A DNA stretch of 60,449 nucleotides, from positions 1 to 60,449 of the IMG/VR virus record IMGVR_UViG_3300037247_000601; one strand, 5' to 3'. The position numbers and the translations under genes are program-made. Under the pieces are notes generated by a model. It saw only the letters and a list, made by a program, of their open reading frames with translations. It ran no database searches and was not told the DNA's origin. Shown here piece by piece: positions 15,701 through 53,897 of this stretch (within the stretch, counting starts at the first letter, position 1; each line of letters opens with the position of its first letter). The stretch comes from a virus (Duplodnaviria > Caudoviricetes).

Positions 15701-18687
15701 ACATCTTCTTGAGATACTGGAGTCGCCTGCGCGAGCGTGCGAGATTCGAAGTCGGCTGTGTCATCGGGATAATCCTCGATGTAGCGGTCGATGTCATATT
15801 CTGCCCAACCGTCGTCAAAGTCACGCCCTTCCTGCTCGGCCCGAATCTCCATCTCCCGGGCCACCGCCAAGGAGAGGCCAGTGTCGTCCAGCCGGTCGAC
15901 CGCTTCCTGGGGGATGCCGAGCTCGAGCGCCTTATCGGTCGCCGAGGTGCGTTCTACCGCCGCCTCGTCCTCATCGCGCCGGGCTTCGGCCATATCGAGA
16001 TCGGCGGGGTGGTAGATTTTTTTGATCGCGTTTTCGCGGATCAGTTCCCCTACGGCGTGGTCGTAAGAGCCTTCCGGCAGCAATCCAAGCTGCTCGAAAT
16101 GCTCGCGGAACCAGTGCTGGGACTTGCCGTCCTTGCGGATCAGGCCACGGGTCAAATGCAGATCCTGCGCCCGCGTTTCATCGCTGGGCTGCAAGCCGCC
16201 TTGTTCTTTGATGATGGCCACGATATCGCGAGGCACAGTTTGGTTCGGCACCAGACCAGTCCTGGTCAACCACCCGGTCGAGCGAAGATGCCCCTGAAGA
16301 CGGATCGCCGCGTCTGGGCTGATCTTGAGTCTGCGGGCCAGCATGCCAGGCGTGACCTTACCCAACTTGCCCTCCTGGCGGCGCCAATTAATGAACGCTT
16401 TGCCGGGCTCGACAGAGAGTTGCCAGCTTCCATCCGGCTCCGCGGCCTCCTGGGGGCCCACAGGAGCCACTTCGACCTTAACTGGGTAGACCAGGTCCTG
16501 TGCGATAATCCCGCGTCTTCCTTGGTCCCGTCGCAACTGGCCTTCTTCTGTTAACTGGTCGGCTCTGCTGGCAATCTCCGTAGCCACCACCCTGTTGACA
16601 TATCTACCTTCGGATGTGACGAAGCCATCATCGGACTGGATTTCTTTTGCCTCGAAACCCGCCTCCCTGGCCCGCTCCATCGCTGCACTGTGGAACTCGC
16701 CAGTGAAAACTTCGCCCGAAAGTGTTCTGACGGCAGAAGCGACAATGGTCTCGCTGGGAGCCGCTGTGGTGGCGATCTCAGCCTCGGAAGGTGCCTGGGG
16801 CACCTTAAACGGCTCCGCGCGCACAGCGGGCCGCCCTGGCCCCGTGGGGACGGCCTCTGTCTCGCGTATGAGGTGGCCCTGGAACCGGGGCGCGGATGTT
16901 TCACGTGAAACATCCCCTGGTTCGGCCCGCTTTCTTACGGCCTCATCGACGAGCCGCTGATATTCCGCCTGATAGGCCGACGCTTCGCGTTCGCCGAAGT
17001 TCTGGCGTATGGCCTCAATTTTGGATTCGATCGACTTTGTGGCCATGCCGAACTGTTCGAAATCCTCCCGCGCCTTGTCGGTGATCTCCTGGCCGACGGC
17101 CTCGGCCCGGGCTTCCAAGACCTGTTCGGGGGTGATAACCTCCGGCCGTGCCTGAATGGGTTGTACAGTGGTGGCAATCTCTGGACCCAGTTCTACGGCG
17201 GTGGCTGTCGGAGCCGGCCGTGGCTGTGTTTCTGGTGCAGGCGGCTGTGGTTCTGGCGCTGCTGTACGGCCAAGCCGTTGTTCGATGTCTTCGATTGTCG
17301 GTGCTGGCTGTGCTTCTTCTGTGGCGGTTGTTTTCTCGTCCGCCCCCTTCTTTGAGCGCCGCACCCGAACGCCCATCATCCCTGCCAAGGTATTGAACAG
17401 CGCACCAACCGTGAAGCCGACCTCGCCAGCCTCGGCCGCGCCCTGGAACATCTCGCGCTCCGTATCGTAGAGACCCTGGGCTATCAGGTTCTCCGATACC
17501 GATTGGAACAGTTCCTGCACGCCCTCCTCGACACCGCCCTTGAGCGCGTTGATGAAGATGCGCTGGAATTGTCCGCCGGACGCCTTGTCGTAGCGGTCCA
17601 GCAACCGCGCGACCGGCAGTGCCTCCGAGGTGCCCACGAGACCCGCCATCTTGGCGGAAGTCATGGCAGTCTCAAAGGACGCCCCGCTCTGCACGGCGTC
17701 TCGGAAGGTCGCGGACCCGTTGACCAGCGCACCAGTTCCAGCGGTGACAAGTGTCGCCGGCATGCGCAGCACCCGCCCGGCAATGCCGGTGAGGAGGAAA
17801 GCGCCCGTCGAACCGACGCCTTTGCCCGCCTGGACGACGAAACGGCCCTCATGTTCCTTGGGAATGGGGAACGCTTCCTCGGTACTCTCGCGCAGTGTTA
17901 GTCCCCATTTGTAGGCCGGTTCCTCCGAGACGGGCCTGATTCCAGCCCCGATCTTATCCCGAAGACCCTCGCGGGTCGCCTCGTCCGCGCTCATGTACTG
18001 GATCAAGTCCGCTGTCTGGAACGGAAGTTTCCCGATATTCCTCAGACCCTCGCCACGATCGATGGCGTCGAATATCGACATGGTTTGCCGGAGCGCATTC
18101 TGTCTGGCTATGCCAACTGACTCGGGCAGGCCCGCCGCAGTGCCGGCCGCACCCTGAACCACACCGTAAAGCACACTGCGGGTGAGGCTCTGGGGCTCTG
18201 CCGCTTCCAACCGGCCCAGGATGCTGTCGAGGGTCAGAACCGTGCCCAGGCGCGCCATAATGCTGTTGAGCGTCGGCGCAATAGGCTCGACGGTCGTCTG
18301 TTGCGGCGCGGCCAGTCCCCCACCCAGATCGACCGGGGCAACCGCCGGCATCTCAGCAGCCATGGCCCCTCCCAGGTTGACCGGGACCGCGGCGGAGGCA
18401 GGAACGGGGACAGCTACCGGCGGTGGGGCAGCCTGGGCGACCTGGGTCGGCGCCGGGGTTCCCTGGAGCGCTCGCTCGAAAGCCGCCTTGCCGCCATACT
18501 TATCAAGCACGTTCTGCAAGGCATCGCGGTATTCCGCAGCCTGCGGCGTCACCCCCCGCATAGACAGGCCGCGCGGGTTGTCTGACGTGTAAATCGTTGG
18601 AGGCTTGAGCGCGATCAGGCGGTCGAGATCCTGTTGAGCAGCACCGTCCAAGCGGGCCTCGATACTAGCGAGAGTAACCGGCGGCAT
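12763..18687 (-). CDS. Large internal virion / DNA ejection protein (1974 aa, mosaic)
   Basis: Size; position between ejection genes and tail fibre; Gly/Ala-rich hydrophobic N-region. Confidence 0.8.
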   Translation of the reverse strand: MPPVTLASIEARLDGAAQQDLDRLIALKPPTIYTSDNPRGLSMRGVTPQAAEYRDALQNVLDKYGGKAAFERALQGTPAPTQVAQAAPPPVAVPVPASAAVPVNLGGAMAAEMPAVAPVDLGGGLAAPQQTTVEPIAPTLNSIMARLGTVLTLDSILGRLEAAEPQSLTRSVLYGVVQGAAGTAAGLPESVGIARQNALRQTMSIFDAIDRGEGLRNIGKLPFQTADLIQYMSADEATREGLRDKIGAGIRPVSEEPAYKWGLTLRESTEEAFPIPKEHEGRFVVQAGKGVGSTGAFLLTGIAGRVLRMPATLVTAGTGALVNGSATFRDAVQSGASFETAMTSAKMAGLVGTSEALPVARLLDRYDKASGGQFQRIFINALKGGVEEGVQELFQSVSENLIAQGLYDTEREMFQGAAEAGEVGFTVGALFNTLAGMMGVRVRRSKKGADEKTTATEEAQPAPTIEDIEQRLGRTAAPEPQPPAPETQPRPAPTATAVELGPEIATTVQPIQARPEVITPEQVLEARAEAVGQEITDKAREDFEQFGMATKSIESKIEAIRQNFGEREASAYQAEYQRLVDEAVRKRAEPGDVSRETSAPRFQGHLIRETEAVPTGPGRPAVRAEPFKVPQAPSEAEIATTAAPSETIVASAVRTLSGEVFTGEFHSAAMERAREAGFEAKEIQSDDGFVTSEGRYVNRVVATEIASRADQLTEEGQLRRDQGRRGIIAQDLVYPVKVEVAPVGPQEAAEPDGSWQLSVEPGKAFINWRRQEGKLGKVTPGMLARRLKISPDAAIRLQGHLRSTGWLTRTGLVPNQTVPRDIVAIIKEQGGLQPSDETRAQDLHLTRGLIRKDGKSQHWFREHFEQLGLLPEGSYDHAVGELIRENAIKKIYHPADLDMAEARRDEDEAAVERTSATDKALELGIPQEAVDRLDDTGLSLAVAREMEIRAEQEGRDFDDGWAEYDIDRYIEDYPDDTADFESRTLAQATPVSQEDVEEAEPLARGEEGAAQPDRDAGDRGAAAGEGAELSPEYRAAIKKHDIATRKYKKIAELYRTRMADDSEFEVAAKEYKAATEEFDEAFAAEQDRQPTVEPTPQGPQTVLPGAEKISDRELAERKMQGRAKAKAAQKPADEGLFDVAGRGQGEIELHAGINLPAAQKQWGKIADRALDYIADLSWIQKATKGYPFRDPHMTALGKQGAEQYLEIYRAAMGRAWRAERIADHLGQVFDNATDVEAKLVIEYLTTKGANPNMIPHRPVLIRQKGRVFKKKPVSLRNAAVAAKSTIKKLGKEMVRRGILPQKSFDKYADEYLPRVYLKFLLERHTGSGGAGLKIGERGYLKERIEDLPAEYRDLYLGEIKDPGFLVRRALSVPAHDMAMEDFLHDIAGNPEWMLPNSFVEWKPPGIRSSRKVTPYWLKAEAQALRDRSRHVDKAQAEGMRGLAEEMDALGEQGLGLFRDQVARPILEEFEKLPDNPRYGDLRGAYVRKDIWNDIMGSRRTILGEETVLDKTLEAARVAHAFWKLSKVPLNPPTVNRNIFSGMVLMHIAGDVRNPILRMGQALREIRNNGQNYRLAIRSGIPASTFKANELKDLHKDVLRIKGEQDGFLGFAYKVAFTVADKVEGAANFYQFIETWGKTAVIIDQKRRGATDQEAVAKAQEALFDYSAVPNWIKQARRSPVGAPFVTFFYKAAPAILRGAARHPGRMFMYYAIPYILGEALVKALHDVDDDDINALLKALPEWMHDKGLVMLWPVQDEKGRWQPIDLSYFMPWGAHEQAFTSAVKIATGEVREGGLELFKDFGIFGGPAPQIAIAATTGVDTFTGYSIVRETDPPRVAALKILQYSWRLVAPTWLTDIGFTGHMYRSLTDQPNYRGDPPLTAMQASARLIGVNIYPVNPEDTRDRNLSRYRWEIKKVTRAMRNLGRDQSLSEEEKEHRRDEYREMRDYLIERRDRYEKESRVHPRLRIGVQAASP
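16897..16912. promoter_or_regulatory. parS: Perfect parS centromere site
   Basis: TGTTTCACGTGAAACA inside a 22-bp perfect palindrome (16894-16915). Confidence 0.85.
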
Positions 18688-28620: not shown

Positions 28621-28884
28621 TTACGACGTGACGATCAAGCCAAGATTGACCATGGCGGTGTATAGCCGTGTGACTGCCGCCTCGTTGGTGCCGGTGGTGG
28701 CGGTTGTCACAACCGCCGTAACGGACGGCCGGGCAATCGGCGTGGCGCCATAGAACCCAACCGTGCTAGTCGCGCTTTCGCCCACTTTGGCTCCCGTAGC
28801 GGCTAAAGCATTGTGGAGTTTCATGCGATCCTGAGACTGGAGGTTCGGCAACAGCCGCGTAAGGTGTCCGCTTTCGGTAGCCAT
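28621..28884 (-). CDS. Putative head decoration protein (paralog B)
   Basis: VGFYGATPIAR...VNLGL; follows coat gene. Confidence 0.65.
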   Translation of the reverse strand: MATESGHLTRLLPNLQSQDRMKLHNALAATGAKVGESATSTVGFYGATPIARPSVTAVVTTATTGTNEAAVTRLYTAMVNLGLIVTS

Positions 28885-28944: not shown

Positions 28945-29181
28945 CTACGTCGTGGTATACAAGCCGAGATTGACCAAGGCCGTATTGATCGCCACGATCG
29001 CCGCTTCATTGGTGGCCGTGGTGGCGGACGCGGTTGGCGCCGTAACGGTCGCCCGAACAATCGGTGTAGCGCCGAAAAATCCGATCTTGCTCGTCGAGGT
29101 TTTCCCGAGACCCACACCGTCGCCGGTCGGGTTGCCGTTGTACCAACGGACATTGGAAGTGGTAACGCTGTTGACAGTCAT
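28945..29181 (-). CDS. Putative head decoration protein (paralog A)
   Basis: IGFFGATPIVR...VNLGL; GAGGAG SD. Confidence 0.7.
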   Translation of the reverse strand: MTVNSVTTSNVRWYNGNPTGDGVGLGKTSTSKIGFFGATPIVRATVTAPTASATTATNEAAIVAINTALVNLGLYTTT

Positions 29182-29247: not shown

Positions 29248-30483
29248 TTACGCGGTGCCGCTCACCCGGGTCGCCAATTCCGGATAAATCGCTTTCACGC
29301 CGTAGAGAATATCGCCGCGGATGATCTCGACATCGTTATCGATATCGTAATCCTTGACCAGCCGCACACTCAACCCGCGATGGGTCTCGCGCGCCTTCCA
29401 CTGGACAGAGTCCGGCATTTCGAGTGGCACGTTCACCAGAGCGAAGGCGTTCTTGTGGAACACCATGTTCTGGGGAGTGATTTCCGCCGCCGTGGTCGAC
29501 TTGTAGATGATCGTGGCATTGTTGGGCGCCGAGTTCGAGACAGTCTGATACGGACCCGAAGTGATGATCGGAGGCGAGATGGAGAGCGTCGTGTCGCTGG
29601 TCGTGGTGACGTTGGCCGTCACATCGGCCCGGAGAACGAACTCCTGCAGGAAATCCAGCGTCACCTTCGACACCGGATTGACCGCGAACACCGTATCGAT
29701 GGTGAACACATCGCCCTCGAAGAGGGAGTCAGCGGTGGTCCAACCGTCCGTCACGAGATCCATCTTGTAGGCGGTCAGCACGTTGGCATAGGTGGTGCTT
29801 TGAGCAGTGGTCACAAGCGGCGTGCCGTCCCCACCCGGGCCAGTGGTGTGACGGGCGACGTTCTGGTCCATGTAGGTTTCCAGATTGGCCACCCGGCCCA
29901 ACCGGGCCTGACGGTAGGCTTCCGCCTGTGGACTGGCAGGCTGGTCGGTGAGAGTGAGCCCCGCCAGGTTACCAATCATCGCCCAGGAATCGGCCGGAGC
30001 CAGAACGGCGTTGCGCTGATCCTGCGGAACCGCCATCTCGTCGAGCCGCTGGGGCGCCTTGGATAGATCGGCGAAGCTGTTGATGGTATTGGACGGGGTT
30101 CCGACCCAGTTCCAGATCTGCTTGTAGAGATCGAGCAGATCGGTATCGACCTTGTTCGCCAGCGCGATCATGGCCGGCTTGATGTAGCGATAAGCGTACT
30201 CCTCGATCGACAGCGTGAGGTCCTGAGTGGAGAAGTTCCAGGAGACGTGCTTGCGCTTGTCGATGGTGATGTTGGTCGATGCTTCCTCCACGTCCTGGTT
30301 GGTCCTGGTCGCACCGTCGGTAACGACGAACTTGACCGGCTTGCGGATCGAAACCGTCTCGCCGACCTTGACGAACTCCTTGCGGTAATCGCGATGAACG
30401 AGATTGCCCATCACGAGGTTGTTTTCGAGCTGGAACAACGCCTCCTTGGCGATGATGCTCGGGGTAAGGATTCTCTGTACCAT
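29248..30483 (-). CDS. Major capsid protein, P22 gp5 family
   Basis: ILTPSIIAKEAL..LENNL, KVGETVSIRKP, YIKPAM..LAN, FHKNAFAL, DILYG. Confidence 0.95.
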   Translation of the reverse strand: MVQRILTPSIIAKEALFQLENNLVMGNLVHRDYRKEFVKVGETVSIRKPVKFVVTDGATRTNQDVEEASTNITIDKRKHVSWNFSTQDLTLSIEEYAYRYIKPAMIALANKVDTDLLDLYKQIWNWVGTPSNTINSFADLSKAPQRLDEMAVPQDQRNAVLAPADSWAMIGNLAGLTLTDQPASPQAEAYRQARLGRVANLETYMDQNVARHTTGPGGDGTPLVTTAQSTTYANVLTAYKMDLVTDGWTTADSLFEGDVFTIDTVFAVNPVSKVTLDFLQEFVLRADVTANVTTTSDTTLSISPPIITSGPYQTVSNSAPNNATIIYKSTTAAEITPQNMVFHKNAFALVNVPLEMPDSVQWKARETHRGLSVRLVKDYDIDNDVEIIRGDILYGVKAIYPELATRVSGTA

Positions 30484-31686
30484 CTACTTGATCTTTCCTG
30501 ATCGCCTCCCCGCGATGTATTCGTCCATCGACATCTTTTCGGGGCTCGGGCGCATGGCAGCGCCAGAACCGCCCAATGTCGGGACAGGCGGGGGGGCTGA
30601 TGTGGGGGTGGGGACCGGCTTCGCTTGCTGGCCCGGCTTGTCGGCGGGCGCCTGTTCGGCTGCCGCTGCCGCGGTGTTGTCCTCCGGCTTTGCAGCCGGG
30701 GCGGCCTGTTCGGCCGTCAAGGTGAATTCGATCTTCGCCAGAGCGCGGCCAAGGTCCACGTCGATCATGTCGAACATGGCTTTCGATTCGTCCTGGTGGG
30801 TCGCCAAGTAGTAGGCGAGACCCGGGCCCTGCTCGGACTGCCAGATTGCCTGTGCGGCGCGTGGATCAATCGCTAAGGACAAGTCGTACACCACGTCATC
30901 GTAGTCCTTGTGGAGCTCGCGGGCCGCTTCCTCCCGCTCACCAAAGGTCTCCATGGTCTCGGCTTGACGCTCGGCAGCGGCGCGATTGGCCGCCTCCTGG
31001 CGGGCCTGTTCGGCCTTGGTTTCGGCTTTGGTTTCGTTTGCCGCCACCGTGTCCTTGGTCCACTTGCCCATGGCAGTGGCCCATTTCTCGTTGTCGAAGT
31101 CGTGGTCCTCGAGCGTCGGCGGCTCGGCAGGCACTTCCTCGGCCTTTGCGGCCGCTTCCGCCTCTGCGGCGGGTGCCCTCTCCCGGAGCTGCGCCTGAAG
31201 CCCGGCCAGTTGCTCCTGAAGCGTCTGGATGGCGCGGCCCTGCTCGCGACGCTCGCGACGGGACTGGGAGCGGCGCCGGGGCTTGGTCTTCTTCGGCTCG
31301 TATTCCTTGTCCTCATCGTCCGCGAGGTCGGCGGCTTCGCTACCTGCGTCGCCGCCGTCCTCGTCACCGCCCGGAGCGGGCTCTGCTTGAGCCTTCGGGG
31401 CGGCGTTGTCAGATTCCGGGGCTTCGGTGTCCTTGGCGACGAGCTCGGCCAGTTGCTCGGCCGTTGGACCTGCGTCTCCCTTGTCGCCTTCCGCGGCCTC
31501 TGCGGCCTCCTCGTCACTGGCAGGTTCGTCAGGCAGGGGGTCGTCCTGATCCCGGAACATCGGGTCGATCCACTGGGTATCCTGGCTTTCGCTGTCGGCA
31601 ACGGGCGGGGTCTCCGGATTGACCGAAGGAACGCTCATGGCGGGTGCGGGTTCGGGGGTGGCAGTCTGTGCCTTGGAATCTGGCAT
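30484..31686 (-). CDS. Scaffolding protein
   Basis: Acidic; GPGLAYYLA; TSAPPPV...KMSMDEYIA C-terminus; directly upstream of coat. Confidence 0.88.
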   Translation of the reverse strand: MPDSKAQTATPEPAPAMSVPSVNPETPPVADSESQDTQWIDPMFRDQDDPLPDEPASDEEAAEAAEGDKGDAGPTAEQLAELVAKDTEAPESDNAAPKAQAEPAPGGDEDGGDAGSEAADLADDEDKEYEPKKTKPRRRSQSRRERREQGRAIQTLQEQLAGLQAQLRERAPAAEAEAAAKAEEVPAEPPTLEDHDFDNEKWATAMGKWTKDTVAANETKAETKAEQARQEAANRAAAERQAETMETFGEREEAARELHKDYDDVVYDLSLAIDPRAAQAIWQSEQGPGLAYYLATHQDESKAMFDMIDVDLGRALAKIEFTLTAEQAAPAAKPEDNTAAAAAEQAPADKPGQQAKPVPTPTSAPPPVPTLGGSGAAMRPSPEKMSMDEYIAGRRSGKIK

Positions 31687-31828
31687 ACCTTGCTATCCTT
31701 CTTCAGGTGCGACGGCCTCTGCGGCCGGTGCGTGGGTATGGAAAAGCCGCCCGGAGGCGGCTGGTGGTGGTGTCTTAGATCGACCCCGCTGTCAGACGGG
31801 GCCGGGCTTTATTCTGCCGACGGTAAAC

Positions 31829-32011
31829 TCAGGACTCACAGGGCATCGCCTCCTCACGCGGGTGGTTGTATCCACAGCGCCACCACTTGACCCAGCCGCT
31901 CGGCGCGGGGTCCGACAGTATGCGCCGTAGGGTGTTTTTGCTGCCTGCCCAGCCTTCTCGTCTGCACTTACGTCCGCATTCAAAGGCTTCTTCGATCCAT
32001 GTGGTCGCCAT
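31829..32011 (-). CDS. Small protein with weak Rmf/CrpP-like pattern
   Basis: AFECGR...G...WWRCGY; AGGAG upstream. Confidence 0.4.
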   Translation of the reverse strand: MATTWIEEAFECGRKCRREGWAGSKNTLRRILSDPAPSGWVKWWRCGYNHPREEAMPCES

Positions 32012-32032
32012 TTCGTAAATACTCCTGATGGG

Positions 32033-32272
32033 TTAGTCCATCCAGTTGCCGCCCCAACTCTGATAGTGATATTTCCGCAGCATAGGAAGGTTGTATGGGA
32101 CGCTCTCTTTGGCGATGCGGCAACATTCGGCGCGAATAGCCGCTAATGCCGTCGTTCCGGTATCGCAAAAGACCACCGTCGAAAGGTTTTTGGGATATTT
32201 GACGAAGTGCCGCTGCCACATCGGGGCGAGTTCCCGCCGCACCGCCATATCGATCATCTCCTCACGGGTCAT
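32033..32272 (-). CDS. Hypothetical protein
   Basis: GAGG SD. Confidence 0.6.
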   Translation of the reverse strand: MTREEMIDMAVRRELAPMWQRHFVKYPKNLSTVVFCDTGTTALAAIRAECCRIAKESVPYNLPMLRKYHYQSWGGNWMD

Positions 32273-32282
32273 GGACTTGCCT

Positions 32283-32555
32283 CTAAGCGTAGTGGTTCGT
32301 CTGGCCGTTCATGCTCTTGTCGCGGCTCTTGCGCGCCTTGCTGTACTCGGAATACGGCATCTTGCCCATCTTGCTCGGGCTCATCCCGATGTACTCCAGG
32401 GCTTTGGCCTGCTCCTTGGCCTTCGCCATCGCGGCCTTGTAGCGGGCCTTGTCTTTCTTGATCTCGCCGGCCTTGATCAGCGTCCGAACGTCGCTCTCGG
32501 ACTGGTACTTCTTGTCCATTGCGGACATCTTGGAAAAGCTCTCTCCGTGCATCAT
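32283..32555 (-). CDS. Small basic phage protein
   Basis: ESDVRTLIKAGEIKKDKARYKAA; GGAG SD. Confidence 0.7.
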   Translation of the reverse strand: MMHGESFSKMSAMDKKYQSESDVRTLIKAGEIKKDKARYKAAMAKAKEQAKALEYIGMSPSKMGKMPYSEYSKARKSRDKSMNGQTNHYA

Positions 32556-32583
32556 GACGGCGGTCTCCATCATTTGAAGTGTT

Positions 32584-32862
32584 TCAGTTGAGCGGCGATT
32601 CGAAAAATGCCGACTTATGGTAGATGTACATCGGCTGGGCACGCAGTCTATCCATCGCCGGATTAACCACACGAGAAGCAAACTCATCGAGAGTGAGGGT
32701 CATGTTGGCCGCTCGTGGCTGAATCGTGGCCGCTTCGCCCGGCGCTGCGGCGAAGAAGCCCTCAGCGGGCGTGACCGTCATTACGACCGAAGCACCAGAT
32801 GCTGCGGCCACTGGGACAGCAGACAGCGCGGCCAAGAAAGCGCGGCGGGACAAACCCTTCAT
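32584..32862 (-). CDS. Twin-arginine-leader protein carrying capsid-derived segments
   Basis: SRRAFL leader; segments align with this phage's coat protein. Confidence 0.7.
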   Translation of the reverse strand: MKGLSRRAFLAALSAVPVAAASGASVVMTVTPAEGFFAAAPGEAATIQPRAANMTLTLDEFASRVVNPAMDRLRAQPMYIYHKSAFFESPLN

Positions 32863-32873
32863 CTCTCGTTTCC

Positions 32874-33062
32874 TCACTGAATTGTGGCTGGCTGCTGACC
32901 CATCCACACCACATTGAGACCTTGAGCTTCGGCGATCCGGTGACGGCCTGCGACCAAGACCCGCGCGCGCGCCGTGTCGTCGTCACTCAGCGCGGCCTCG
33001 ATGGCATCGAGCAGCGAGCACATGTCAACCGCCCAAGCCTCGTAGTTCACTTCGCCGGTCAT
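32874..33062 (-). CDS. Hypothetical protein
   Basis: ATGA overlap with portal. Confidence 0.6.
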   Translation of the reverse strand: MTGEVNYEAWAVDMCSLLDAIEAALSDDDTARARVLVAGRHRIAEAQGLNVVWMGQQPATIQ

Positions 33063-35221
33063 TGCACCGGCACCGAGCCGGCCCCATTGGTAGGATACGC
33101 TTGCGGGGGCTGCGGAGCAACTGGCCCAGTCGGTGCCACGGTGGGCATCTGCACCGGTGAATCGGGCGCCAGAATATCCCGCAACACCGCCTCGACCTGG
33201 CCCTCGATCATGGACTTGAACTGGCCGTTCGCCATCGCGAACTCGAACGCCTTCTCCAGGTTCTCCAGCTTGATCTGCTCGGTCTCTTCCTCGGTCTTGG
33301 CCACCTCGGCGGCCATCTCGATGATTTTCGCATTGGCCTCCGTGTCCTTGCGGGCCTGATCGCGCTGGTCGGTCTCGATCTTGGCCTTGGCCTCGATCTC
33401 CTCGGGCGAAGGCGGCGGCGGCGCGGGCTCCTCCTCGCCATCCTTCAACTCCACCATGCCCGGCGGCAGCATCTTGCGGAACCGCTCCGCTAGATCGTCC
33501 GAGCCCGGGAAATCGAGGGCTTTCACGATGATGTCCATCGCCACCTTGCCCGCTTCGGGCACGGCCTTCACCAGTTGCAACAGCGAATCAGCCGCCTCGG
33601 TCCGTTTGGTAGAATAGGACGGCCCGGTGGTGACCGCAACGTCGTAGACCCCGACCGCTAGATCGTTGACCCGGTGCTCCTGGCCGGCGTCGTCCACCAC
33701 CGTCTGGTTGATGCGCGCCGCCTCGGTGGTCCCGTCCTCGTTCAGCAAGCGGATGACTCGATCGCTGTCGTAGACCTTGGGGATGATCCGCACCAACTGC
33801 CGCCCGCAAGCCACGATGGCCAGTTTCAGATTGTCGCTGTAATTGAAAGTCGAGATGTCCGATTGACGCTGCCGGGCGATTATTGCCTTGCCACTGGTCT
33901 CTGGTAGGCTGGGCGCGCGGGCGGCATCAAAATAAACCCCCGTGGTGGCCTTCATGTCGTCCTGGGCTATCAGGATTTCCTGGTGCATCGACGGGCTGCC
34001 CAGGGCTGGCTGGACACGCTGGGGCGGCAGGCCGCTGTTATTATCGTCCGGCGCGTAGGGCAAATACGGCATGTTGCGCGTGTTGGCCTGGTTCCACAGG
34101 GCCTCGACGCCGGCGATATTCTTCGGGGTAACCATGAAGGGCGATTTGGGCTGTAGCGCGATCTGCTCGGTCTGCGCTGCGCGCCAGTAATTGTACATCC
34201 GCTGCGGGTCTTTGGCGTGGCGAATGATGCCGTTCCTGATGGTGCGCCGGCCGATGTGGGTCTCATCGCCGATCACTGGAATGATCGGAATATCGGTGCC
34301 GATCCACTCGAACGGCCCTTCCAGCACCTCGTGGCCGTTGATGATGCGCATCTCGACCTTGTTGCGCTCCACCACTCGGCGCCTCTTGATGTAATGCCCC
34401 TGCCCAGTCTCAGCATCCTGCACCACCCCATCGCCCTCGTTCATCTCGGTGATGTCGATCGTCCGCCCGTCATCCAGTAGCGCCAGCGTCCGCTTCTCCA
34501 GAGTCTTGGTCCAATATTCGGCGACCCGGATTTCCTCGCCCTGCCGCCAATCGCCCAGATGGGTCGAGTCGGCGTCCATGAAGTCGAAGCCGACCAGGGC
34601 CGATTTCGGATAGCGCGCCTTGTAGGTCTCCAAGCCCATTGCCTCCTCGTAGAAGCAATACATCGCATCCGAACGGTCGAGTTCCACCGCCTGCGGATCC
34701 CAGGTCACCGCGTAGGGGTCGACGATGCGCTTGATGCGGATCACCTGGTCGAATGCCTGCTCGTGAGAATACTCGGTCGTGATCCGAAAGTGGCCGATAC
34801 CGCACTGCGCCGCACCCTCGGCCGCGGTCACATAGGCGATAACAGCGTTCGACTGATGCTCTATATGCCGGATCGTCCCGGTGAAGATATCGGCAATTTC
34901 ATCGTCACTGGTATCGTCGCCCGGTAGAACTTTGATGGCCGGCCGGTTCTGGCGAATTTCGTTGACGATCTGCTTCACGAAGGCCGGCATCCGGTTGATG
35001 GTCAGTATCGGGCGGCCATCCTCGTTGCGCTCGCGACGAATTTCCTCCGGCCATTGGTCGCCAGCCATGAATTCCAGGTCTTCGATACCGGCGTCCCGGT
35101 TGTCCTGCTCATGGTCGACCGCGATCTGATAGCGGTCGCGGGCGATGCGCATGAGTTCGGCGTCCTTGCCGCCGATGTCCTCGACATCGGGCAGTTTGTC
35201 CTCGACGCGCTCAACCATCAT
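33059..35221 (-). CDS. Portal protein, P22 gp1 family
   Basis: GDQW, RPILTINR, AKDPQRMYNYW, TSGKAIIARQ, GPSYSTKR. Confidence 0.95.
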   Translation of the reverse strand: MMVERVEDKLPDVEDIGGKDAELMRIARDRYQIAVDHEQDNRDAGIEDLEFMAGDQWPEEIRRERNEDGRPILTINRMPAFVKQIVNEIRQNRPAIKVLPGDDTSDDEIADIFTGTIRHIEHQSNAVIAYVTAAEGAAQCGIGHFRITTEYSHEQAFDQVIRIKRIVDPYAVTWDPQAVELDRSDAMYCFYEEAMGLETYKARYPKSALVGFDFMDADSTHLGDWRQGEEIRVAEYWTKTLEKRTLALLDDGRTIDITEMNEGDGVVQDAETGQGHYIKRRRVVERNKVEMRIINGHEVLEGPFEWIGTDIPIIPVIGDETHIGRRTIRNGIIRHAKDPQRMYNYWRAAQTEQIALQPKSPFMVTPKNIAGVEALWNQANTRNMPYLPYAPDDNNSGLPPQRVQPALGSPSMHQEILIAQDDMKATTGVYFDAARAPSLPETSGKAIIARQRQSDISTFNYSDNLKLAIVACGRQLVRIIPKVYDSDRVIRLLNEDGTTEAARINQTVVDDAGQEHRVNDLAVGVYDVAVTTGPSYSTKRTEAADSLLQLVKAVPEAGKVAMDIIVKALDFPGSDDLAERFRKMLPPGMVELKDGEEEPAPPPPSPEEIEAKAKIETDQRDQARKDTEANAKIIEMAAEVAKTEEETEQIKLENLEKAFEFAMANGQFKSMIEGQVEAVLRDILAPDSPVQMPTVAPTGPVAPQPPQAYPTNGAGSVPVQ

Positions 35222-35605: not shown

Positions 35606-35845
35606 CTACGCCCCCAACTTTCCAAAGGGAACAATTACGTCAAAAGATTTGGCGGTCCAAGTTATACGCAAGGCGCCCGGCAATAATTTCAGACACGCAA
35701 GCAAACCATGCCGGTAAATTCGAGACCGAGGGCGTTGCACAATACGCCAGAGCCAAAAACCAACTGCCTCCGCCCAAGGCCAAACGCCTTCGCGGCCAAA
35801 GATTGGTTGGTGATTGCGCCGCATCCGTTCAACTCCACTCATCAC
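35606..35845 (-). CDS. Hypothetical protein
   Basis: ATGA overlap with terL. Confidence 0.5.
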   Translation of the reverse strand: MMSGVERMRRNHQPIFGREGVWPWAEAVGFWLWRIVQRPRSRIYRHGLLACLKLLPGALRITWTAKSFDVIVPFGKLGA

Positions 35846-37428
35846 GCCCCCATCCAGCTACCGGCCGCGCCTCGGCGGCGCCCGCCCAGCGGGTTGATCT
35901 TCGACATGTCGATGGTCAGCGGCGCCTTGGCGGCGACCAGCACTTCCTCGTCGCAGATGCGCGACAGCGCATCAAGCGCGTCCTTGTGGGCGCCGACCGG
36001 GAAATGCTCGATCTCCTCGTCCAGGAACTGCCGCACCACATCGACCGTCTCACCTTCCCAATTCGGCCGCATGAGCCGTTCCAGCAGATAGATCCGGTGT
36101 GCCTCGAAAATCGGCTGCAAGCGCATGATCCGGTCATCCTTGTGGAGCTGGCGGCCCAAGGGAGTCACGTCGAAATGGTAGGTTTCCTCTTCCTGACGCC
36201 ATTCGATCGCCTCGATGTCGGCCTGGAGCCCGTATTGCTCGTAGCCGACGAACATCGGCTTGTAGGCGCGGTGCAGTTCGATCACCTTGGCGACCTTCTC
36301 GGTCAGGTTCATCTTGTCGAAGATCAGATCGATCATGTACCAGTTGTCGTCGGCGCCGTAGCCCAGCACCCACATGGCCGTGAAATCGCTCTCGCGCTTT
36401 TTCTTCGAGGCCGGGTCGACCAGGATGATGCGGCACAGGTTGTCGTGGTTGCCGCCCTTCCAGAACCGGATATCCTCGCGCTTGAAACCCAGCGTCGCAT
36501 CGGCGCGCGGGTCTAGCAGCATCTGGCAGTTGTAGACGTAGGAGCCCATGTCCCGACGCTTCCGCGCGTTCTCCTCGGCGCTCATCAACACCGGCTCGCC
36601 GTCGACCGTGCCGTCCACCGTGGCCGGGTATCGGCGCTCCTTGGCGGCCTTGCGGCGCAGGATTTCCTCGTAGGGGTCAGCCTGGTGATATTTCGAGCCC
36701 TTGTAGCGGATCACGCCACCGCGCCGGCCAAGGTTCAGCGAGGTCGCCCAGGCGTTGGTGCATTTCTTGATCTTCTCGGAGGCATCGCGCCCCGATACGG
36801 TGTCGAGCGTCACCAGATCGTCGTAGTCCAGCACATGAAAATGCTTCGATGTCGGCTGCGATTCCACCACACCCCACGCCTCGACCGTGGCTTCATTGGG
36901 GTTGGTCTTGCGTTTGACCACGATCCCGTTATCGAGCGACCAGCGCGAGGCTTGGTTCTTCGGGTCACGCCACAGCACCTCGGGATAGAGGAACTTGAGA
37001 TCGTCGTTGGTTTCCAGTTCCAGCTTGATCTGGCGCAAGAATCCCTTGGCGATGTCGCGGGTGTGGCTGAAAATCCCGATGGTGATCTCGGGGTTTTTCA
37101 GGATCGTCTGGATGTTTAGCGCGAAGGTCGAAATGGTCGATTTGTAGTGCTCGCGCGACCACAGATCGAGATAGCCGTCCGGCGCATTCTGAACTTCCCG
37201 GGCCCGGTCGAAAATCCACGGATGCAGCGCGTCCTTCCGTTTCAGGATGTAGACCAGCAAATAGAACAGATCGTTGCGGCCCAGGAAGGCGCGCGCCTCG
37301 TGGTAGCCGTCCTCCCCACCCGCCTCGAACGCCTGGTTCAGGTGGCGCGTGTACCAGCCGATGCGGTCGCGCAAGGCGTCGGCCGAAGGGGCGGGGGGAA
37401 CCCGACGATCAATGGAGGACTGGGACAC
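35842..37428 (-). CDS. terL: Terminase large subunit
   Basis: REHYKST Walker A variant, LDYDD Walker B, ILVDPA...DFTA and HKDALDAL nuclease motifs. Confidence 0.92.
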   Translation of the reverse strand: MSQSSIDRRVPPAPSADALRDRIGWYTRHLNQAFEAGGEDGYHEARAFLGRNDLFYLLVYILKRKDALHPWIFDRAREVQNAPDGYLDLWSREHYKSTISTFALNIQTILKNPEITIGIFSHTRDIAKGFLRQIKLELETNDDLKFLYPEVLWRDPKNQASRWSLDNGIVVKRKTNPNEATVEAWGVVESQPTSKHFHVLDYDDLVTLDTVSGRDASEKIKKCTNAWATSLNLGRRGGVIRYKGSKYHQADPYEEILRRKAAKERRYPATVDGTVDGEPVLMSAEENARKRRDMGSYVYNCQMLLDPRADATLGFKREDIRFWKGGNHDNLCRIILVDPASKKKRESDFTAMWVLGYGADDNWYMIDLIFDKMNLTEKVAKVIELHRAYKPMFVGYEQYGLQADIEAIEWRQEEETYHFDVTPLGRQLHKDDRIMRLQPIFEAHRIYLLERLMRPNWEGETVDVVRQFLDEEIEHFPVGAHKDALDALSRICDEEVLVAAKAPLTIDMSKINPLGGRRRGAAGSWMGA

Positions 37429-47394: not shown

Positions 47395-48696
47395 TCATAA
47401 CGCCGCTCTCATGAACGCCGCCGCGACTTGCGGGACGATGGCATTGCCGTAGGCGCGCAGCTTGCCCACGCGGGCGGGAATCCCATGATCCAGCGGGAAT
47501 GTTCCGGGCTCAACGCGCCGCGATTTTCCGTCTCCGCAAGGGATGATGTCGTAGGCGTCCCAGAAGCCAAGGTCGCCATGTGGTGGAGAGACAATCCTTT
47601 CGACACGCCCCGCTCCATCCGGTTCTTCTCGGTTGACACCTTGCGCATCTTCCGACCGTCCCGGTGGTTCTGGGTATCTGGAGTTGCCCACCCGGCGATC
47701 GCCGCTGCATCCGGGGTCGGCCAGCCTGCCAATGCAGTCTGCGTCTCCAGACTCGCCTGGCGCTTGCTCCCCGCCGGCTGTGTTTTTTTTATTCGCCCGC
47801 CGTTCGGGACGTTCGGCGTTGCCCAGCCCGCTAAGTAAACCTGATCCTCCAGCCGGCTCCTGTGATTGAGCGCCCTGTTGGGGTTGCCCGTCGTGTGGCC
47901 GCTCTCCACAGAACGCGGCGTGCCCCACCCGGCCAATTCCGCCACTTCGTTGAGGGGCCTCGCATTCTTTCCGTGCTGGTTCGACTTGTCGCCCTTCCAG
48001 TCCCGCGCCGAGGTCGTTGGCCAGCCCGCAACCAAAGCCGTCGTCTTGCGACTGCTGTCGTTGTTCCCCGCCTCGTTGTAGCCCTTCTGGGCCGGGGGGC
48101 CCGCCATCGGCGTTGGCCAGCCACCAAAGCCGCTGTCGGGGGTGCGGCGCTCCGACGCTCGCAGCGCACAAATCCGAGGCGGCAACGGCAAATCCGAGTA
48201 TCTCCAGCGAACCTCGTACTCCGGCGAACCAGCGCCGGCCATCGATGCTTTCAACCTGCTCTCCAAAGACGATTGCAGGGCGGAGCTCGGTGATGAGGCG
48301 CCATGCTTCCGGCCAAAGGTGCCGGGAATCTTCGTCCCACGCGTGGCCGCAGTCGGCGCATATGAAGAAGCCAGTTCGTCGAGGGCACGGGACAAGCAAC
48401 GCGCTACCGCAGCTTGGGCACGTCTTCTGCTTGCCGGCGACGGAGAATGGGGGACAGGGGCATGAGGCTGTCCAAATAGGTCGGTCGTCGGGGATGCCGG
48501 CGAGCCTTGCAGCCGCGGCCCAACCGCCGATTCCGGCGAACAAGTGGACTTGTCCGTAGCCCTTGAGGTCATCGCCCGCCACCTCCCGGATATCGCGCTC
48601 GTCCACCTCGCCGGCGGGGATATGCCCGGCCGCGATCAGGTTGCGCAGCCAAGCCGCGCAATAGGCGTCGATCTCGTTGTAATAGGCAGAGGCCAT
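47395..48696 (-). CDS. DNA cytosine-C5 methyltransferase, main frame (motifs I-VIII, X)
   Basis: LFAGIGGW, SCPCPPFSVAG, GEQV, PHPRQRLW, YGNAIVPQVA. Confidence 0.9.
   Translation of the reverse strand: MASAYYNEIDAYCAAWLRNLIAAGHIPAGEVDERDIREVAGDDLKGYGQVHLFAGIGGWAAAARLAGIPDDRPIWTASCPCPPFSVAGKQKTCPSCGSALLVPCPRRTGFFICADCGHAWDEDSRHLWPEAWRLITELRPAIVFGEQVESIDGRRWFAGVRGSLEILGFAVAASDLCAASVGAPHPRQRLWWLANADGGPPGPEGLQRGGEQRQQSQDDGFGCGLANDLGAGLEGRQVEPARKECEAPQRSGGIGRVGHAAFCGERPHDGQPQQGAQSQEPAGGSGLLSGLGNAERPERRANKKNTAGGEQAPGESGDADCIGRLADPGCSGDRRVGNSRYPEPPGRSEDAQGVNREEPDGAGRVERIVSPPHGDLGFWDAYDIIPCGDGKSRRVEPGTFPLDHGIPARVGKLRAYGNAIVPQVAAAFMRAAL
47409..48572 (-). CDS. Nested alternate-frame subunit of the C5 MTase (WPTP repeats + motif IX)
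   Basis: Six GW[P/G/A]T[P/T] repeats; LSPEHSRWIMGFP; start uncertain. Confidence 0.75.
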   Translation of the reverse strand: MTSRATDKSTCSPESAVGPRLQGSPASPTTDLFGQPHAPVPHSPSPASRRRAQAAVARCLSRALDELASSYAPTAATRGTKIPGTFGRKHGASSPSSALQSSLESRLKASMAGAGSPEYEVRWRYSDLPLPPRICALRASERRTPDSGFGGWPTPMAGPPAQKGYNEAGNNDSSRKTTALVAGWPTTSARDWKGDKSNQHGKNARPLNEVAELAGWGTPRSVESGHTTGNPNRALNHRSRLEDQVYLAGWATPNVPNGGRIKKTQPAGSKRQASLETQTALAGWPTPDAAAIAGWATPDTQNHRDGRKMRKVSTEKNRMERGVSKGLSLHHMATLASGTPTTSSLAETENRGALSPEHSRWIMGFPPAWASCAPTAMPSSRKSRRRS

Positions 48697-52313: not shown

Positions 52314-53897
52314 CTATGATGGTGCTCCCTCGAACAATGGCGTATCGGCGCCCTCGACGTGTGCTAGGCGCCGCCGGATGTCGGCGACGAACCGCGCCTC
52401 TTTCTCGATCACGATGGCGTCGAAACCTTCGCGTAAGCAGGCCATGGCGGTGGTGCCCGATCCGGCGAAGGGGTCGAGAACCAGTCCGCCCGGCGGCGTG
52501 ATAAGGCGGCACAGATAGGCCATTAGGTCGACGGGTTTCACCGTGGGGTGCTTGGAGCCCAGGCGGTCGGCCTTGTCCGCCTTGGCGGTGTAGAAAAATC
52601 GTGCGGCGGTGCCTTGGTCTCCATACGCCTCAAAACCACCGGCTCGGTCCGGCATGTCGCCATAGACGTTGGCGAAGGGTGAGGACGGCTCGGCTCCAGT
52701 CAGTGAGCCACCTGGGCCGGTTCGGGGGAACGCCTGCAGCACCTCCTCGGAGCCGTCGTGAATGCAATTTGCCGGCCATCTTCCCGCCGGTGAGCCCCCG
52801 CGCGGCCCAGGCGTTGCCGCAAAGTCAGTTGAGCCTTTTTCGGCGTAACGACGATCAGCCGACGCCTCGCCGTCACGGCCGTTGCCCTGATAGGCGTTCG
52901 GCCGATAGCCGTGCTCATGGTTTGCTTGGTTAAATCTGTCGGTCCCCGGCGGCGTCGTGTTTTTGAAAGTCCCCACCCTGCACCCGTCGATGTTCAGCGC
53001 CCCCGTGCCATGCTCCAGCACGTTCGCCGCGACGGTCTTTTCCGACAGCGGCTTGCGGGCTAGGCAGATGATCTCGGTGGCGGGCTTCAGCGCTGTGCCC
53101 CAGCCTTCCCATTGCTTGGCGGCATCGGTCGCCGGGGCGGTTTGGTCCCCACCGACAGAGCCGAGACGTTCGCCGCCGAGGCCACCCATGTCCCCGTCAT
53201 GCTGGCCCGTTATTTCGCGCTCGGTTTCTACTCGTTCAATCAGCGCCAACCAATCATCTGCCAGCGATAGAAGTGGTTGCAATATTCGCCATTGTGCCCG
53301 CGTCGGGACGTTGTGACCCCTTGCCCAGTTAACGGAAGCTCCACCGTGATTGTGATTGTCGTAGAAATGTCCCGCGCCACATATTGCCGCATGGGTAAGT
53401 CCGGTTTTATGGCGCTGTTGTTCGTAGTGTTTTGCAAACTCGCTGAACATTCCTGCCCGCGGTGCCCCCCTATCTATCCCCTTGCTCACGTCATGTGATT
53501 TCGGAAAACCGGTGCCGTAGTGCCACATGATGGTGTCGCGAATCTCAAACCCCGCGTCCTCGATCGCGCAAGCTAGGCGGTGGTAGGTACGCGTGCCGCC
53601 AAATACCAGCATGTGCCCGCCGGGCTTGAGCAGTTCGAACGCCAGCCGCCAGGTCTCGGGCCGGAACGCAATATCGCCGCCGTCCCAAGTTTGGCCCATA
53701 AAGCCAGCCGCAGCCCGGCCGTAAACGCCCGTCGCGCCGTCGCTCTTGACCGGCGCGCTGCCGTCCTTGCCGAAGCGCTTCACGATGCTGACCAAATGAT
53801 AGGGTGGATCGCAACAGACCGAGTCGACCTGGACGCCTTCCTCATGGAGTCGCGGCATCACTTCCAGGCAGTCGCCGTGTTCGACCCGCACGCTCAT
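52314..53897 (-). CDS. N6A/N4C DNA methyltransferase (beta class) with internal HTH
   Basis: HGDC, DPPY, GFPKS, HPTVKP, LDPFAGSGTT. Confidence 0.92.
   Translation of the reverse strand: MSVRVEHGDCLEVMPRLHEEGVQVDSVCCDPPYHLVSIVKRFGKDGSAPVKSDGATGVYGRAAAGFMGQTWDGGDIAFRPETWRLAFELLKPGGHMLVFGGTRTYHRLACAIEDAGFEIRDTIMWHYGTGFPKSHDVSKGIDRGAPRAGMFSEFAKHYEQQRHKTGLTHAAICGAGHFYDNHNHGGASVNWARGHNVPTRAQWRILQPLLSLADDWLALIERVETEREITGQHDGDMGGLGGERLGSVGGDQTAPATDAAKQWEGWGTALKPATEIICLARKPLSEKTVAANVLEHGTGALNIDGCRVGTFKNTTPPGTDRFNQANHEHGYRPNAYQGNGRDGEASADRRYAEKGSTDFAATPGPRGGSPAGRWPANCIHDGSEEVLQAFPRTGPGGSLTGAEPSSPFANVYGDMPDRAGGFEAYGDQGTAARFFYTAKADKADRLGSKHPTVKPVDLMAYLCRLITPPGGLVLDPFAGSGTTAMACLREGFDAIVIEKEARFVADIRRRLAHVEGADTPLFEGAPS

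What the first reader, a model, noticed from the sequence alone, without database searches (positions are those of the whole stretch)
32584..32862. Twin-arginine-leader mini-protein stitched from two capsid fragments (possible capsid decoy)
Seen: a 92-aa ORF between portal and scaffold starts with a Tat-like SRRAFL plus hydrophobic leader. Its segment NMTLTLDEFASRVVNPAMDRL aligns without gaps to the phage's own coat segment DLTLSIEEYAYRYIKPAMIAL (9/21 identical, most others conservative). A few residues later, YIYHKSAF matches the coat's MVFHKNAF, which lies roughly 240 residues further along in the coat. The segments are diverged, so this is not a recent duplication. Established: some anti-phage systems, such as CapRel, are triggered by capsid proteins. 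Inference: this could be a membrane-tethered or exported capsid mimic acting as an immune decoy, an assembly modulator or a superinfection inhibitor.
Basis: partly seen in the sequence, partly recalled or inferred. Interest (0 to 1): 0.78.

Follow-up and report, generated by a model that had tools for sequence, protein, structure and literature searches.

The report
Tat-leader mini-protein carrying head-protein fragments
A small phage gene between portal and scaffold belongs to a previously undescribed family of tiny proteins that join an export (Tat-type) leader to short copies of conserved portal and coat segments, which looks like molecular mimicry but has no tested function.

Summary
The ORF is real: window 32584-32862, minus strand, 92 aa, ATG with a GAGGA ribosome site 8 nt upstream. 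Its residues 51-75 match the first half of the coat spine helix. A profile of that coat region scores 22.3 bits, and 0 of 20,000 shuffles reach this. The second match (the HK.AF motif) is only suggestive. The main result is that the ORF has relatives. Thirteen proteins of 69-92 aa share a highly conserved twin-arginine leader. The NCBIfam Tat model scores above its cutoff in 5 of 5 tested. Behind the leader the "cargo" varies: in-frame pieces of P22-like portal (10 of 13, E down to 3e-20) or coat (3 of 13), in different orders. A relative (L083, portal 77% identical) carries a portal-fragment member at the same position. A second relative (L084) lacks the gene. Both relatives also have a small ORF ending in a coat N-arm copy kept by strong purifying selection. 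My best reading is a fast-evolving accessory mimic peptide routed to the Tat system and acting in phage-host or phage-phage conflict. The partner and function are untested. No publication describing this was found.

The parts
32584..32862 (-). CDS of the 92-aa mini-protein P0001 (stop codon included)
   Evidence: The frame is supported by homologs P0005 and P0007. GC by codon position is 0.61/0.54/0.645, against GC3 0.73-0.92 in neighbouring genes.
32871..32875 (-). Shine-Dalgarno-like GAGGA, 8 nt before the ATG, overlapping the stop codon of the upstream 62-aa ORF
   Evidence: Read. No promoter-like or terminator-like site on the minus strand in 31500-33400.
32782..32862 (-). Twin-arginine (Tat-type) leader, residues 1-27: S-R-R-A-F-L followed by an uncharged Ala/Val/Gly-rich stretch
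   Evidence: TIGR01409 scores 18.1 bits against a cutoff of 16.7. M1, L4, R6, R7, L10, A15 and G23 are invariant in 13 of 13 family members. AF2 predicts a helix at 6-21 at low confidence.
32713..32781 (-). Linker, residues 28-50. Ala/Pro/Gly/Thr-rich, with no recognisable relative.
   Evidence: Not covered by any hit. pLDDT is below 50.
32638..32712 (-). C1: coat-like segment, residues 51-75. It corresponds to coat 86-110, the short helix plus the first half of the spine helix.
   Evidence: It is the best-conserved part among P0001, P0005 and P0007. AF2 predicts helices at 58-66 and 68-75. The coat model has helices at 86-90 and 93-122.
32602..32631 (-). C2: tail motif, residues 78-87 (HK.AF). 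It resembles coat 339-347 (strands 339-343 and 347-351) or, alternatively, the portal stem motif.
   Evidence: Statistically weak. The sibling P0016 shares it.
30160..30222 (-). Coat residues 88-108, the parent-like segment of C1
29443..29469 (-). Coat residues 339-347, the possible parent-like segment of C2
33059..35221 (-). Portal gene. Its residues ~69-88 and ~336-378 are the segments copied in sibling mini-proteins.
32874..33062 (-). 62-aa ORF between the portal and P0001. No relatives found.
32283..32573 (-). 96-aa ORF downstream of P0001. 63% identical to a homolog in L084.

Best explanation
P0001 is a genuine accessory gene of the head-gene cluster of a complete 60-kb P22-like-headed phage. 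It belongs to an undescribed family of 69-92-aa proteins built as [conserved twin-arginine leader] + [variable cargo]. The cargo consists of short in-frame copies of conserved segments of P22-like portal (an N-terminal wing segment; stem plus start of clip) or coat (start of the spine helix).

Proposed mechanism, step by step:
1. The gene is translated together with the head genes. Its own ribosome site is shown; co-transcription is inferred.
2. The leader takes the roughly 10-kDa, largely unstructured product to the host Tat translocon. There it is either exported or held as a signal anchor. This is inferred from sequence only.
3. The cargo acts as a linear mimic of a conserved head-protein surface. 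It competes for a protein that normally recognises that surface. This is inferred from the copied segments and their conservation.
4. Cargo differs completely between close relatives, and the gene is absent in one of them. The partner is therefore more likely a conflict partner than a core assembly partner. Candidates are a host sensor of head proteins or a protein of a competing or superinfecting related phage. This step is speculative.

In P0001 the cargo is the coat spine-helix start plus a weak second motif.
For: Family:
- phmmer over 1.84 billion representatives found two small homologs.
- Profile searches raised the family to 13 proteins, all at E <= 3e-6 and all 69-92 aa.

Leader:
- Invariant or near-invariant at 13 positions.
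- TIGR01409 scores above its cutoff in 5 of 5 members tested, out of 13.

Cargo:
- A portal HMM hits 10 of 13 members at E < 0.01, the best at 3e-20. Two separate portal regions appear in either order.
- A coat HMM hits P0001, P0005 and P0007 at one and the same place.
- The C1 sub-profile gives 22.3 bits with 0 of 20,000 shuffles reaching it.
- Pfam PF16510 scores above its cutoff in P0008.
- C1 is the most conserved stretch among P0001, P0005 and P0007.

Context:
- L083 (portal 77% identical) carries the member P0012 as the second small gene after the portal, as in the window. Its start overlaps the stop of the preceding ORF (TAATG).
- L084 (portal 78%, coat 84% identical) lacks the gene, with no gap left.

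Peptide-level selection on copied head segments in this lineage:
- The coat N-arm copy of L084 differs from its own coat N-arm at 19 of 31 codons synonymously and at only 3 by amino acid.

Rarity:
- Among 23,104 ORFs of 161 sources, only L083 and L084 show such secondary fragment ORFs at E < 1e-3.

Structure:
- The AF2 model is low-confidence except for a helix at C1, as expected for a peptide that folds on a partner.
Against: - No expression or export data exist.
- Genomic context is known for only 2 of 13 members.
- GC3 of P0001 (0.645) is lower than in neighbouring genes and hardly separates its frame from the opposite-strand frame.
- P0001 has the most divergent leader of the family.
- Pfam TAT_signal did not match P0001 at E <= 1. 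It stays below its cutoff in the two siblings where it matched, P0005 and P0008, of the four scanned.
- The P0012 portal piece differs from its own portal at 12 amino-acid-changing codons against 6 synonymous ones, so selection on that cargo looks relaxed.
- A periplasmic location would separate the peptide from cytoplasmic head proteins and sensors, unless it acts before export.
- Ascertainment bias: members were found through protein searches that reward in-frame leader and motif.
- No partner is identified.
Confidence: 0.4

Rival explanations
1. Own-head assembly modulator. The peptide (and, in relatives, the coat N-arm-copy protein) binds the phage's own scaffold, portal or coat. It would tune nucleation or portal incorporation, possibly at the membrane.
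For: - It sits inside the portal-scaffold-coat cluster.
- The copied coat N-arm in L083 and L084 corresponds to the region that in P22 binds the scaffold hook. This rests on passages of PMC12005531 naming Asp14, Glu15 and Glu18 of the N-arm.
- That copy is under strong purifying selection.
- There is translational coupling in L083.
Against: - The gene is absent in L084 and in all 80 more distant relatives.
- Cargo differs completely between the window and L083 despite 77% identical portals.
- Tat topology would place the cargo outside the cytoplasm.
- GC3 is typical of an accessory gene.
Confidence: 0.17
2. Recombination debris. The ORFs are non-functional scars of illegitimate recombination at conserved portal or coat sequences next to a small Tat-leader gene. 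They stay open by chance and by the bias of protein searches.
For: - Mosaic order varies, and there are internal deletions between members such as P0009 and P0012.
- GC3 is low.
- The synonymous to non-synonymous ratio in the P0012 cargo looks relaxed.
- Several tails have no recognisable relative or only a weak, diverged one.
- The family is small and seen only in metagenomes.
Against: - All 13 members are open, of similar length, and keep their pieces in frame with the leader.
- C1 is the best-conserved part across three members that are only 45-51% identical overall.
- P0001 has a good ribosome site, and P0012 has a start overlapping the preceding stop.
- The neighbouring N-arm copy shows that copied head segments in this lineage are kept by selection.
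Confidence: 0.2
3. Ordinary exported moron with chance resemblance. P0001 would be a small Tat-exported protein unrelated to the coat, and the two matches would be coincidence.
For:
- C2 fails the profile test.
- Pfam's coat model does not match P0001.
Against: - 0 of 20,000 shuffles reach the C1 profile score.
- The same coat position is hit in 20 of 80 loci, and by the siblings P0005 and P0007.
- Ten siblings with the same leader carry unmistakable portal pieces.
Confidence: 0.05

Closest known systems
Twin-arginine (Tat) signal peptides, especially uncleaved signal anchors such as that of the Rieske Fe-S protein (PF10399), and leaders of Tat 'hitchhiker' chaperones such as MelC1
   Same: S/T-R-R-x-F-L motif, an uncharged Ala/Val/Gly stretch of 19-25 residues, and often Pro plus a basic residue after it. 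TIGR01409 scores above its cutoff. Siblings give sub-threshold matches to PF10399 and to the MelC1 leader. The Atlas feature neighbours are small Tat-signal proteins (a lead only).
   Different: The passenger is not a cofactor enzyme or a folded domain. It is 40-65 residues of copied phage head-protein segments. The gene is phage-encoded and lies within the head operon. Cleavage and export are untested. That the Rieske signal is uncleaved, and that MelC1 works by hitchhiking, are recalled and come from no call.
P22-type coat protein gp5 (PF11651) and P22-type portal gp1 (PF16510)
   Same: C1 aligns with the start of the coat spine helix and keeps the nearly invariant coat columns L91, P103 and A104. 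Sibling cargos align with the portal N-terminal wing segment and with stem plus clip start. Domain limits are taken from passages of PMC12005531. The mapping to P22 numbering is by offset and is approximate.
   Different: Only 20-45-residue pieces are present, not the fold. The pieces occur in variable order and are fused to an export leader. P0001 is not a member of either family (Pfam found no hit).
Short capsid-derived peptides or capsid proteins that bacterial defences recognise (T4 Gol peptide with Lit; major capsid protein with CapRel; portal or terminase with Avs). Recalled knowledge, not tested here.
   Same: The concept that short or conserved parts of head proteins are recognised by other proteins, so that a copy could act as decoy or competitor.
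   Different: Those are parts of the structural proteins themselves. No separately encoded, leader-fused copy is known to me. No defence system was examined here.
Small phage periplasmic regulators with N-terminal signal-anchor domains (for example the T4 antiholin RI). Recalled knowledge.
   Same: Similar size (about 90-100 aa), an N-terminal membrane-targeting segment, and a short C-terminal part acting outside the cytoplasm. RI is linked to sensing superinfection.
   Different: No sequence similarity was tested or seen. RI uses a SAR domain, not a Tat motif, and carries no copies of head proteins. P0001 is not next to lysis genes.

Membership tests
Tat signal peptide (TIGR01409 / PF10518) | Twin-arginine motif S/T-R-R-x-F-L near the N-terminus | tested here: met
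   S-R-R-A-F-L at residues 5-10. R-R is present in 13 of 13 family members.
Tat signal peptide (TIGR01409 / PF10518) | Model score above the curated cutoff | tested here: met
   TIGR01409 gives 18.1 bits against 16.7 for P0001, and passes in 5 of 5 members tested. Pfam PF10518 did not match P0001 at E <= 1. It is sub-threshold in P0005 and P0008 (16.9 and 16.2 against 22.7).
Tat signal peptide (TIGR01409 / PF10518) | Moderately hydrophobic h-region followed by a signal-peptidase site (A-x-A) | tested here: inconclusive
   The uncharged stretch is 19-25 residues with mean Kyte-Doolittle 1.6-2.3. P0001 has A-A-A and S-G-A candidates. Most siblings have Pro right after the Ala-rich end, so an uncleaved anchor is equally possible. 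No signal-peptide predictor was available.
Tat signal peptide (TIGR01409 / PF10518) | Tat-dependent export | not testable with these tools
   Needs reporter fusions in tat+ and tat- cells.
P22 coat protein family (PF11651) | Full HK97-type coat fold matched by the family model | tested here: not met
   No Pfam hit at E <= 1. Only residues 51-74 match positions 90-113 of my own coat HMM.
Leader-plus-head-fragment mini-proteins (family defined here) | Conserved N-terminal leader (M-x-x-L-[ST]-R-R-x-[FV]-L ... G at position 23), total length 69-92 aa | tested here: met
   P0001 scores E 3.6e-26 against the family profile, but its own sequence is in that profile. Independent support comes from phmmer with P0001 alone, which found P0005 (E 1.3e-5) and P0007 (E 1.7e-4).
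Leader-plus-head-fragment mini-proteins (family defined here) | Cargo recognisable as piece(s) of P22-like portal or coat | tested here: met
   C1 is significant. 10 of 13 members carry portal pieces and 3 of 13 carry coat pieces. P0016 has no significant piece (portal HMM E 2.4).
Leader-plus-head-fragment mini-proteins (family defined here) | Position just downstream of the portal gene | tested here: inconclusive
   True for the 2 members with known context, the window and L083. The context of the other 11 could not be fetched.
Decoy or trigger of capsid-sensing defence (CapRel, Lit, Avs type) | Interaction with, or protection from, a defined defence protein | not tested
   No defence gene was examined. 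This idea rests on recalled knowledge only.

The most novel reading that the evidence does not exclude
A modular 'leader plus captured epitope' device. This phage lineage repeatedly captures short pieces of the most conserved head-protein segments (portal stem/clip and wing, coat spine helix and, in a neighbouring gene, the coat N-arm). It places them behind one Tat leader. The peptide binds, in the cytoplasm, whatever protein recognises that segment: a host sensor of portal or capsid, or a rival phage's assembly or ejection protein. It then drags that protein to the Tat translocon, as in hitchhiker export or jamming, or neutralises it in the periplasm. Cargo swapping between close relatives would be the trace of an arms race.
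Probability: 0.15. Interest if true: 0.9.

Novelty: categorically new. Interest (0 to 1): 0.78.

Why it matters
If the family is functional, it would be the first case known to me of a phage encoding separate, export-tagged copies of short conserved pieces of its own structural proteins. That would be a protein-level mimicry module with exchangeable cargo. It would offer a handle on what recognises conserved portal and capsid surfaces in infected cells, whether defence sensors, rival phages or assembly partners. It would also suggest that the Tat pathway is used in phage conflicts. Even if the function turns out to be modest, two findings stand. Copied head-protein segments can be kept by strong purifying selection: in the N-arm copy, 19 of 31 codons are changed synonymously and only 3 by amino acid. 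And fragment ORFs near head genes should therefore not be dismissed as debris. The claim of novelty rests on three full-text searches and on finding no match in PHROGs, Pfam or 50,697 phage records. These are limited checks.

Tried and rejected
- Close-relative searches with P0001 found nothing: the word-indexed protein search (self only), tblastn against 50,697 phage records, IMG/VR pattern scans and GTDB genome contigs with P0005 and P0016.
- P0012 against phage records hit only portal genes. No cultured phage has a member.
- The metagenome scan returned mostly portal genes. Only L083 held a member. Weaker leader-only matches may have fallen below the 80 loci kept.
- Complex prediction of coat plus P0001 residues 45-92 gave no verdict (score 0.00, mark 0.32). 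It is neither for nor against binding.
- No RNA holder was listed in the public runs. Only two DNA runs hold the stretch, one of them the probable source.
- Laying contigs: in run X2 a 342-nt contig matches only 32693-32905 (leader, linker and upstream). The bin covering the 3' half of the cargo (32547-32667, which includes C2) has almost no cover, and no listed piece lies on 32584-32692. This would fit a different cargo in that relative. It is one short contig and I could not read its sequence, so I do not count it.
- Idea rejected: the 96-aa ORF downstream carries a copy of the scaffold C-terminus. There was no hit between scaffold and 32283-32573 at E <= 1.
- Idea rejected: the 62-aa ORF is the homolog of the N-terminal part of the L084 N-arm-copy protein. 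BLASTP gave E 0.55.
- The weak match of P0001 residues 22-74 to the 78-aa and 87-aa ORFs after the coat (E 0.002-0.07) lies in Ala/Thr/Gly-rich sequence. I take it as compositional.
- The AF2 model of P0001 is too poor (pLDDT 47) for a fold search, so none was run.
- Atlas neighbours only echo the Tat leader.
As a result the 24-kb, 14-kb and 13.8-kb contigs of P0005, P0016 and P0007 could not be read.
- Supplementary files of papers were not consulted.

Full report
**What is there.** The window is a complete virus record of 60,449 bp with direct terminal repeats and 60% G+C. On the minus strand the head genes run in this order:
- large terminase (35842-37428)
- portal (33059-35221; PF16510, E 2e-176)
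- four small ORFs of 62, 92, 96 and 79 aa
- scaffold (30484-31686; phrog_8865, E 7e-17)
- coat (29248-30483; PF11651, E 2e-57)

The finding is the 92-aa ORF at 32584-32862. It starts at an ATG. A GAGGA lies 8 nt upstream and overlaps the stop of the 62-aa ORF. No promoter-like or terminator-like site lies on its strand nearby. Its GC3 (0.645) is lower than that of its neighbours (0.73-0.92), so composition alone does not prove coding.

**The observation.** Segment 1 (residues 53-73) is 9/21 identical to coat 88-108. The evidence that this is more than chance:
- tblastn of the ORF hits exactly this place in the coat genes of 20 of 80 loci fetched through the portal, E 0.006-0.45.
- A coat HMM built from 84 sequences ranks the ORF first after the coat itself among 557 sequences, E 0.0012.
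- A sub-profile of coat 84-112 scores it at 22.3 bits. 0 of 20,000 shuffles reach that; the highest shuffle scores 11.8.

An AlphaFold model of the coat (pLDDT 86.7) places this segment at a short helix (86-90) and the first half of the 30-residue spine helix (93-122).

Segment 2 (I-Y-H-K-S-A-F) is weaker. BLASTP gives E 0.19, and its sub-profile score is reached by 1135 of 20,000 shuffles. On the other side, a post-hoc pattern occurs 27 times in coat genes and only once elsewhere in 1.97 million ORF residues, and that one place is this ORF. The same tail aligns about equally well with a portal motif carried by a sibling protein. I therefore treat segment 2 as unresolved.

**The ORF has relatives, and they change the picture.** The word-indexed search found only the protein itself. 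phmmer over 1.84 billion representatives found two small homologs, P0005 (81 aa) and P0007 (86 aa). Two profile searches raised the family to 13 proteins of 69-92 aa, all at E <= 3e-6.

All 13 share one N-terminal leader. M1, L4, R6, R7, L10, A15 and G23 are invariant, and six further positions are identical in 12 of 13. An uncharged stretch of 19-25 residues follows. NCBIfam's Tat-signal model scores above its cutoff in all 5 members I tested, including P0001. Pfam gives sub-threshold matches to the Tat signal and to the Rieske-type Tat signal anchor in siblings.

Behind the leader the sequence is not conserved as a whole. It is made of recognisable pieces.
- A portal HMM built from 126 sequences hits 10 of 13 members at E < 0.01 (3e-20 to 0.0017).
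- The hits fall at two separate portal regions: HMM positions about 58-79 (window portal about 69-88) and about 319-361 (window portal about 336-378).
- These occur singly, in the portal's own order, or in reverse order.
- The three misses are P0001, P0007 and P0016.
- The coat HMM hits P0001, P0005 and P0007 at one and the same place.
- Longer alignments show that several tails I had first taken as unexplained are diverged continuations of the portal pieces.

By offset to the P22 portal, the second portal piece would be the stem helix plus the start of the clip, and the first would lie in the N-terminal wing (domain limits from passages of PMC12005531). This mapping is approximate.

**Context.** Only two members have readable context.

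In L083 (5.4-kb metagenome contig, portal 77% identical to the window's), P0012 is the second small gene after the portal, as in the window. Its ATG overlaps the stop of the preceding ORF (TAATG). Its cargo is portal stem/clip followed by the portal wing piece.

L084 (portal 78%, coat 84% identical) has the order portal, small ORF, homolog of the 96-aa ORF, scaffold, coat. There is no leader gene and no room for one.

So the gene is accessory, and its cargo differs completely between close relatives. GC by codon position is alike in P0001 and P0012 (GC3 0.645 and 0.648), against about 0.81 in the portals.

Among 23,104 stop-to-stop ORFs of the window and 160 loci, only L083 and L084 show secondary small ORFs with coat or portal pieces at E < 1e-3. 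The habit therefore belongs to this lineage, not to P22-like phages in general. No cultured phage has a member.

**A second kind of copied segment.** In L083 and L084 the small ORF right after the portal ends in a copy of the coat N-arm (coat residues about 3-35; E 1e-12 and 7e-12). In L084 the copy and the phage's own coat N-arm compare as follows over 31 codons:
- 9 identical codons
- 19 codons changed only synonymously
- 3 amino-acid changes
- nucleotide identity 0.68, protein identity 0.90

That is strong selection for the peptide sequence. In P22 the N-arm is where the scaffold hook docks (passages of PMC12005531). The window itself has no such copy. This matters for the finding because it shows that copied head-protein segments in this lineage can be functional. 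By contrast, the P0012 portal piece shows 12 amino-acid-changing codons against 6 synonymous ones relative to its own portal. P0001 C1 shows 12 against 4. Selection on these cargos therefore cannot be shown from the two DNA sequences available. At the protein level, C1 is the best-conserved stretch among P0001, P0005 and P0007, which are only 45-51% identical overall.

**Structure.** AlphaFold with the three-sequence alignment gives a poor model of P0001 (pLDDT 47). It has helices at 6-21 (leader) and at 58-66 and 68-75 (C1). This fits a short, mostly unstructured peptide. The complex prediction with the coat gave no verdict and is not used as evidence.

**Interpretation.** The following are shown:
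- a real family
- a Tat-type leader by sequence
- cargo made of portal and coat pieces
- accessory status
- the position after the portal in two genomes

The following are inferred: targeting to the Tat system, as a cleaved export signal or as an anchor, and action of the cargo as a linear mimic. The partner is speculative.

Cargo turnover and presence/absence among close relatives point to conflict (host sensors of head proteins, or rival and superinfecting relatives) rather than to a core assembly role. I put this reading at 0.4. An assembly-modulator role gets 0.17, recombination debris 0.2, and pure chance 0.05. The rest is left for things I have not thought of.

The topology problem is real. 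If the peptide is exported, it meets cytoplasmic proteins only before export, as in the hitchhiker route. Otherwise it acts in the periplasm, for example on proteins ejected by a superinfecting phage. Knowledge of Rieske anchors, MelC1 hitchhiking, T4 RI, and CapRel, Lit and Avs is recalled and was not tested here.

**Novelty and limits.** Three full-text searches returned nothing that describes leader-fused copies of portal or coat segments. These were Tat plus portal plus phage; capsid decoy or mimic and anti-defence; portal or capsid gene fragments and partial duplication. For these I saw listings and abstract starts only. PHROGs and Pfam have no family for it.

The limits are:
- only 13 members, all from metagenomes
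- context for only 2
- no RNA or protein evidence
- no signal-peptide predictor

The source habitat, as recorded for the probable source run, is a marine sediment metagenome.

Noticed in passing
L084 2134-2484 (+) and L083 about 3021-3257 (+): The small ORF directly after the portal ends in a copy of the coat N-arm (coat residues about 3-35). In L084, 19 of 31 codons differ only synonymously from the phage's own coat and 3 differ by amino acid. This is a strongly selected mimic of the scaffold-docking arm. The window has no such copy.
   Followed up: partly
L083 3530-5402: After the mini-protein gene, L083 carries genes of unknown function (phrog_4652, phrog_15946) instead of scaffold and coat. 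It then has a low-complexity stretch with long ORFs open in several frames. It could be a rearranged genome, a satellite-like element or an assembly problem.
   Followed up: partly
window 32283-32573 (-): A 96-aa Lys/Ala-rich ORF with very high GC3 (0.92). It is conserved at 63% identity in L084 at the same position. It has no Pfam, PHROG or NCBIfam family.
   Followed up: partly
window 28621-28884 and 28945-29181 (-); L084 2821-3084 (+): Two paralogous-looking Ala/Thr-rich ORFs of 78-87 aa lie right after the coat. An 87-aa ORF of L084, lying between the 96-aa homolog and the scaffold, matches phrog_12296, annotated as 'tail fiber protein' (E 7e-11). These are possibly small head-decoration or fibre-like proteins.
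   Followed up: no
window 12763-18687 (-): A 1974-aa ORF with no PHROG family at E <= 1e-5. Its size and place suggest an internal or ejected virion protein.
   Followed up: no
window 47395-48696 and 52314-53897 (-): Two large DNA methyltransferase genes and a primase-helicase fusion (48697-51330) sit in a genome with a P22-like head module. At 60 kb the genome is much larger than the 33-40-kb phages whose coats are most similar.
   Followed up: no
window 32547-32692 (run X2): A relative in a second study matches the leader, linker and upstream region (32693-32905), but no listed piece lies on the cargo part and the bin 32547-32667 has almost no cover. This may be another cargo variant. It rests on one short contig only.
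   Followed up: no
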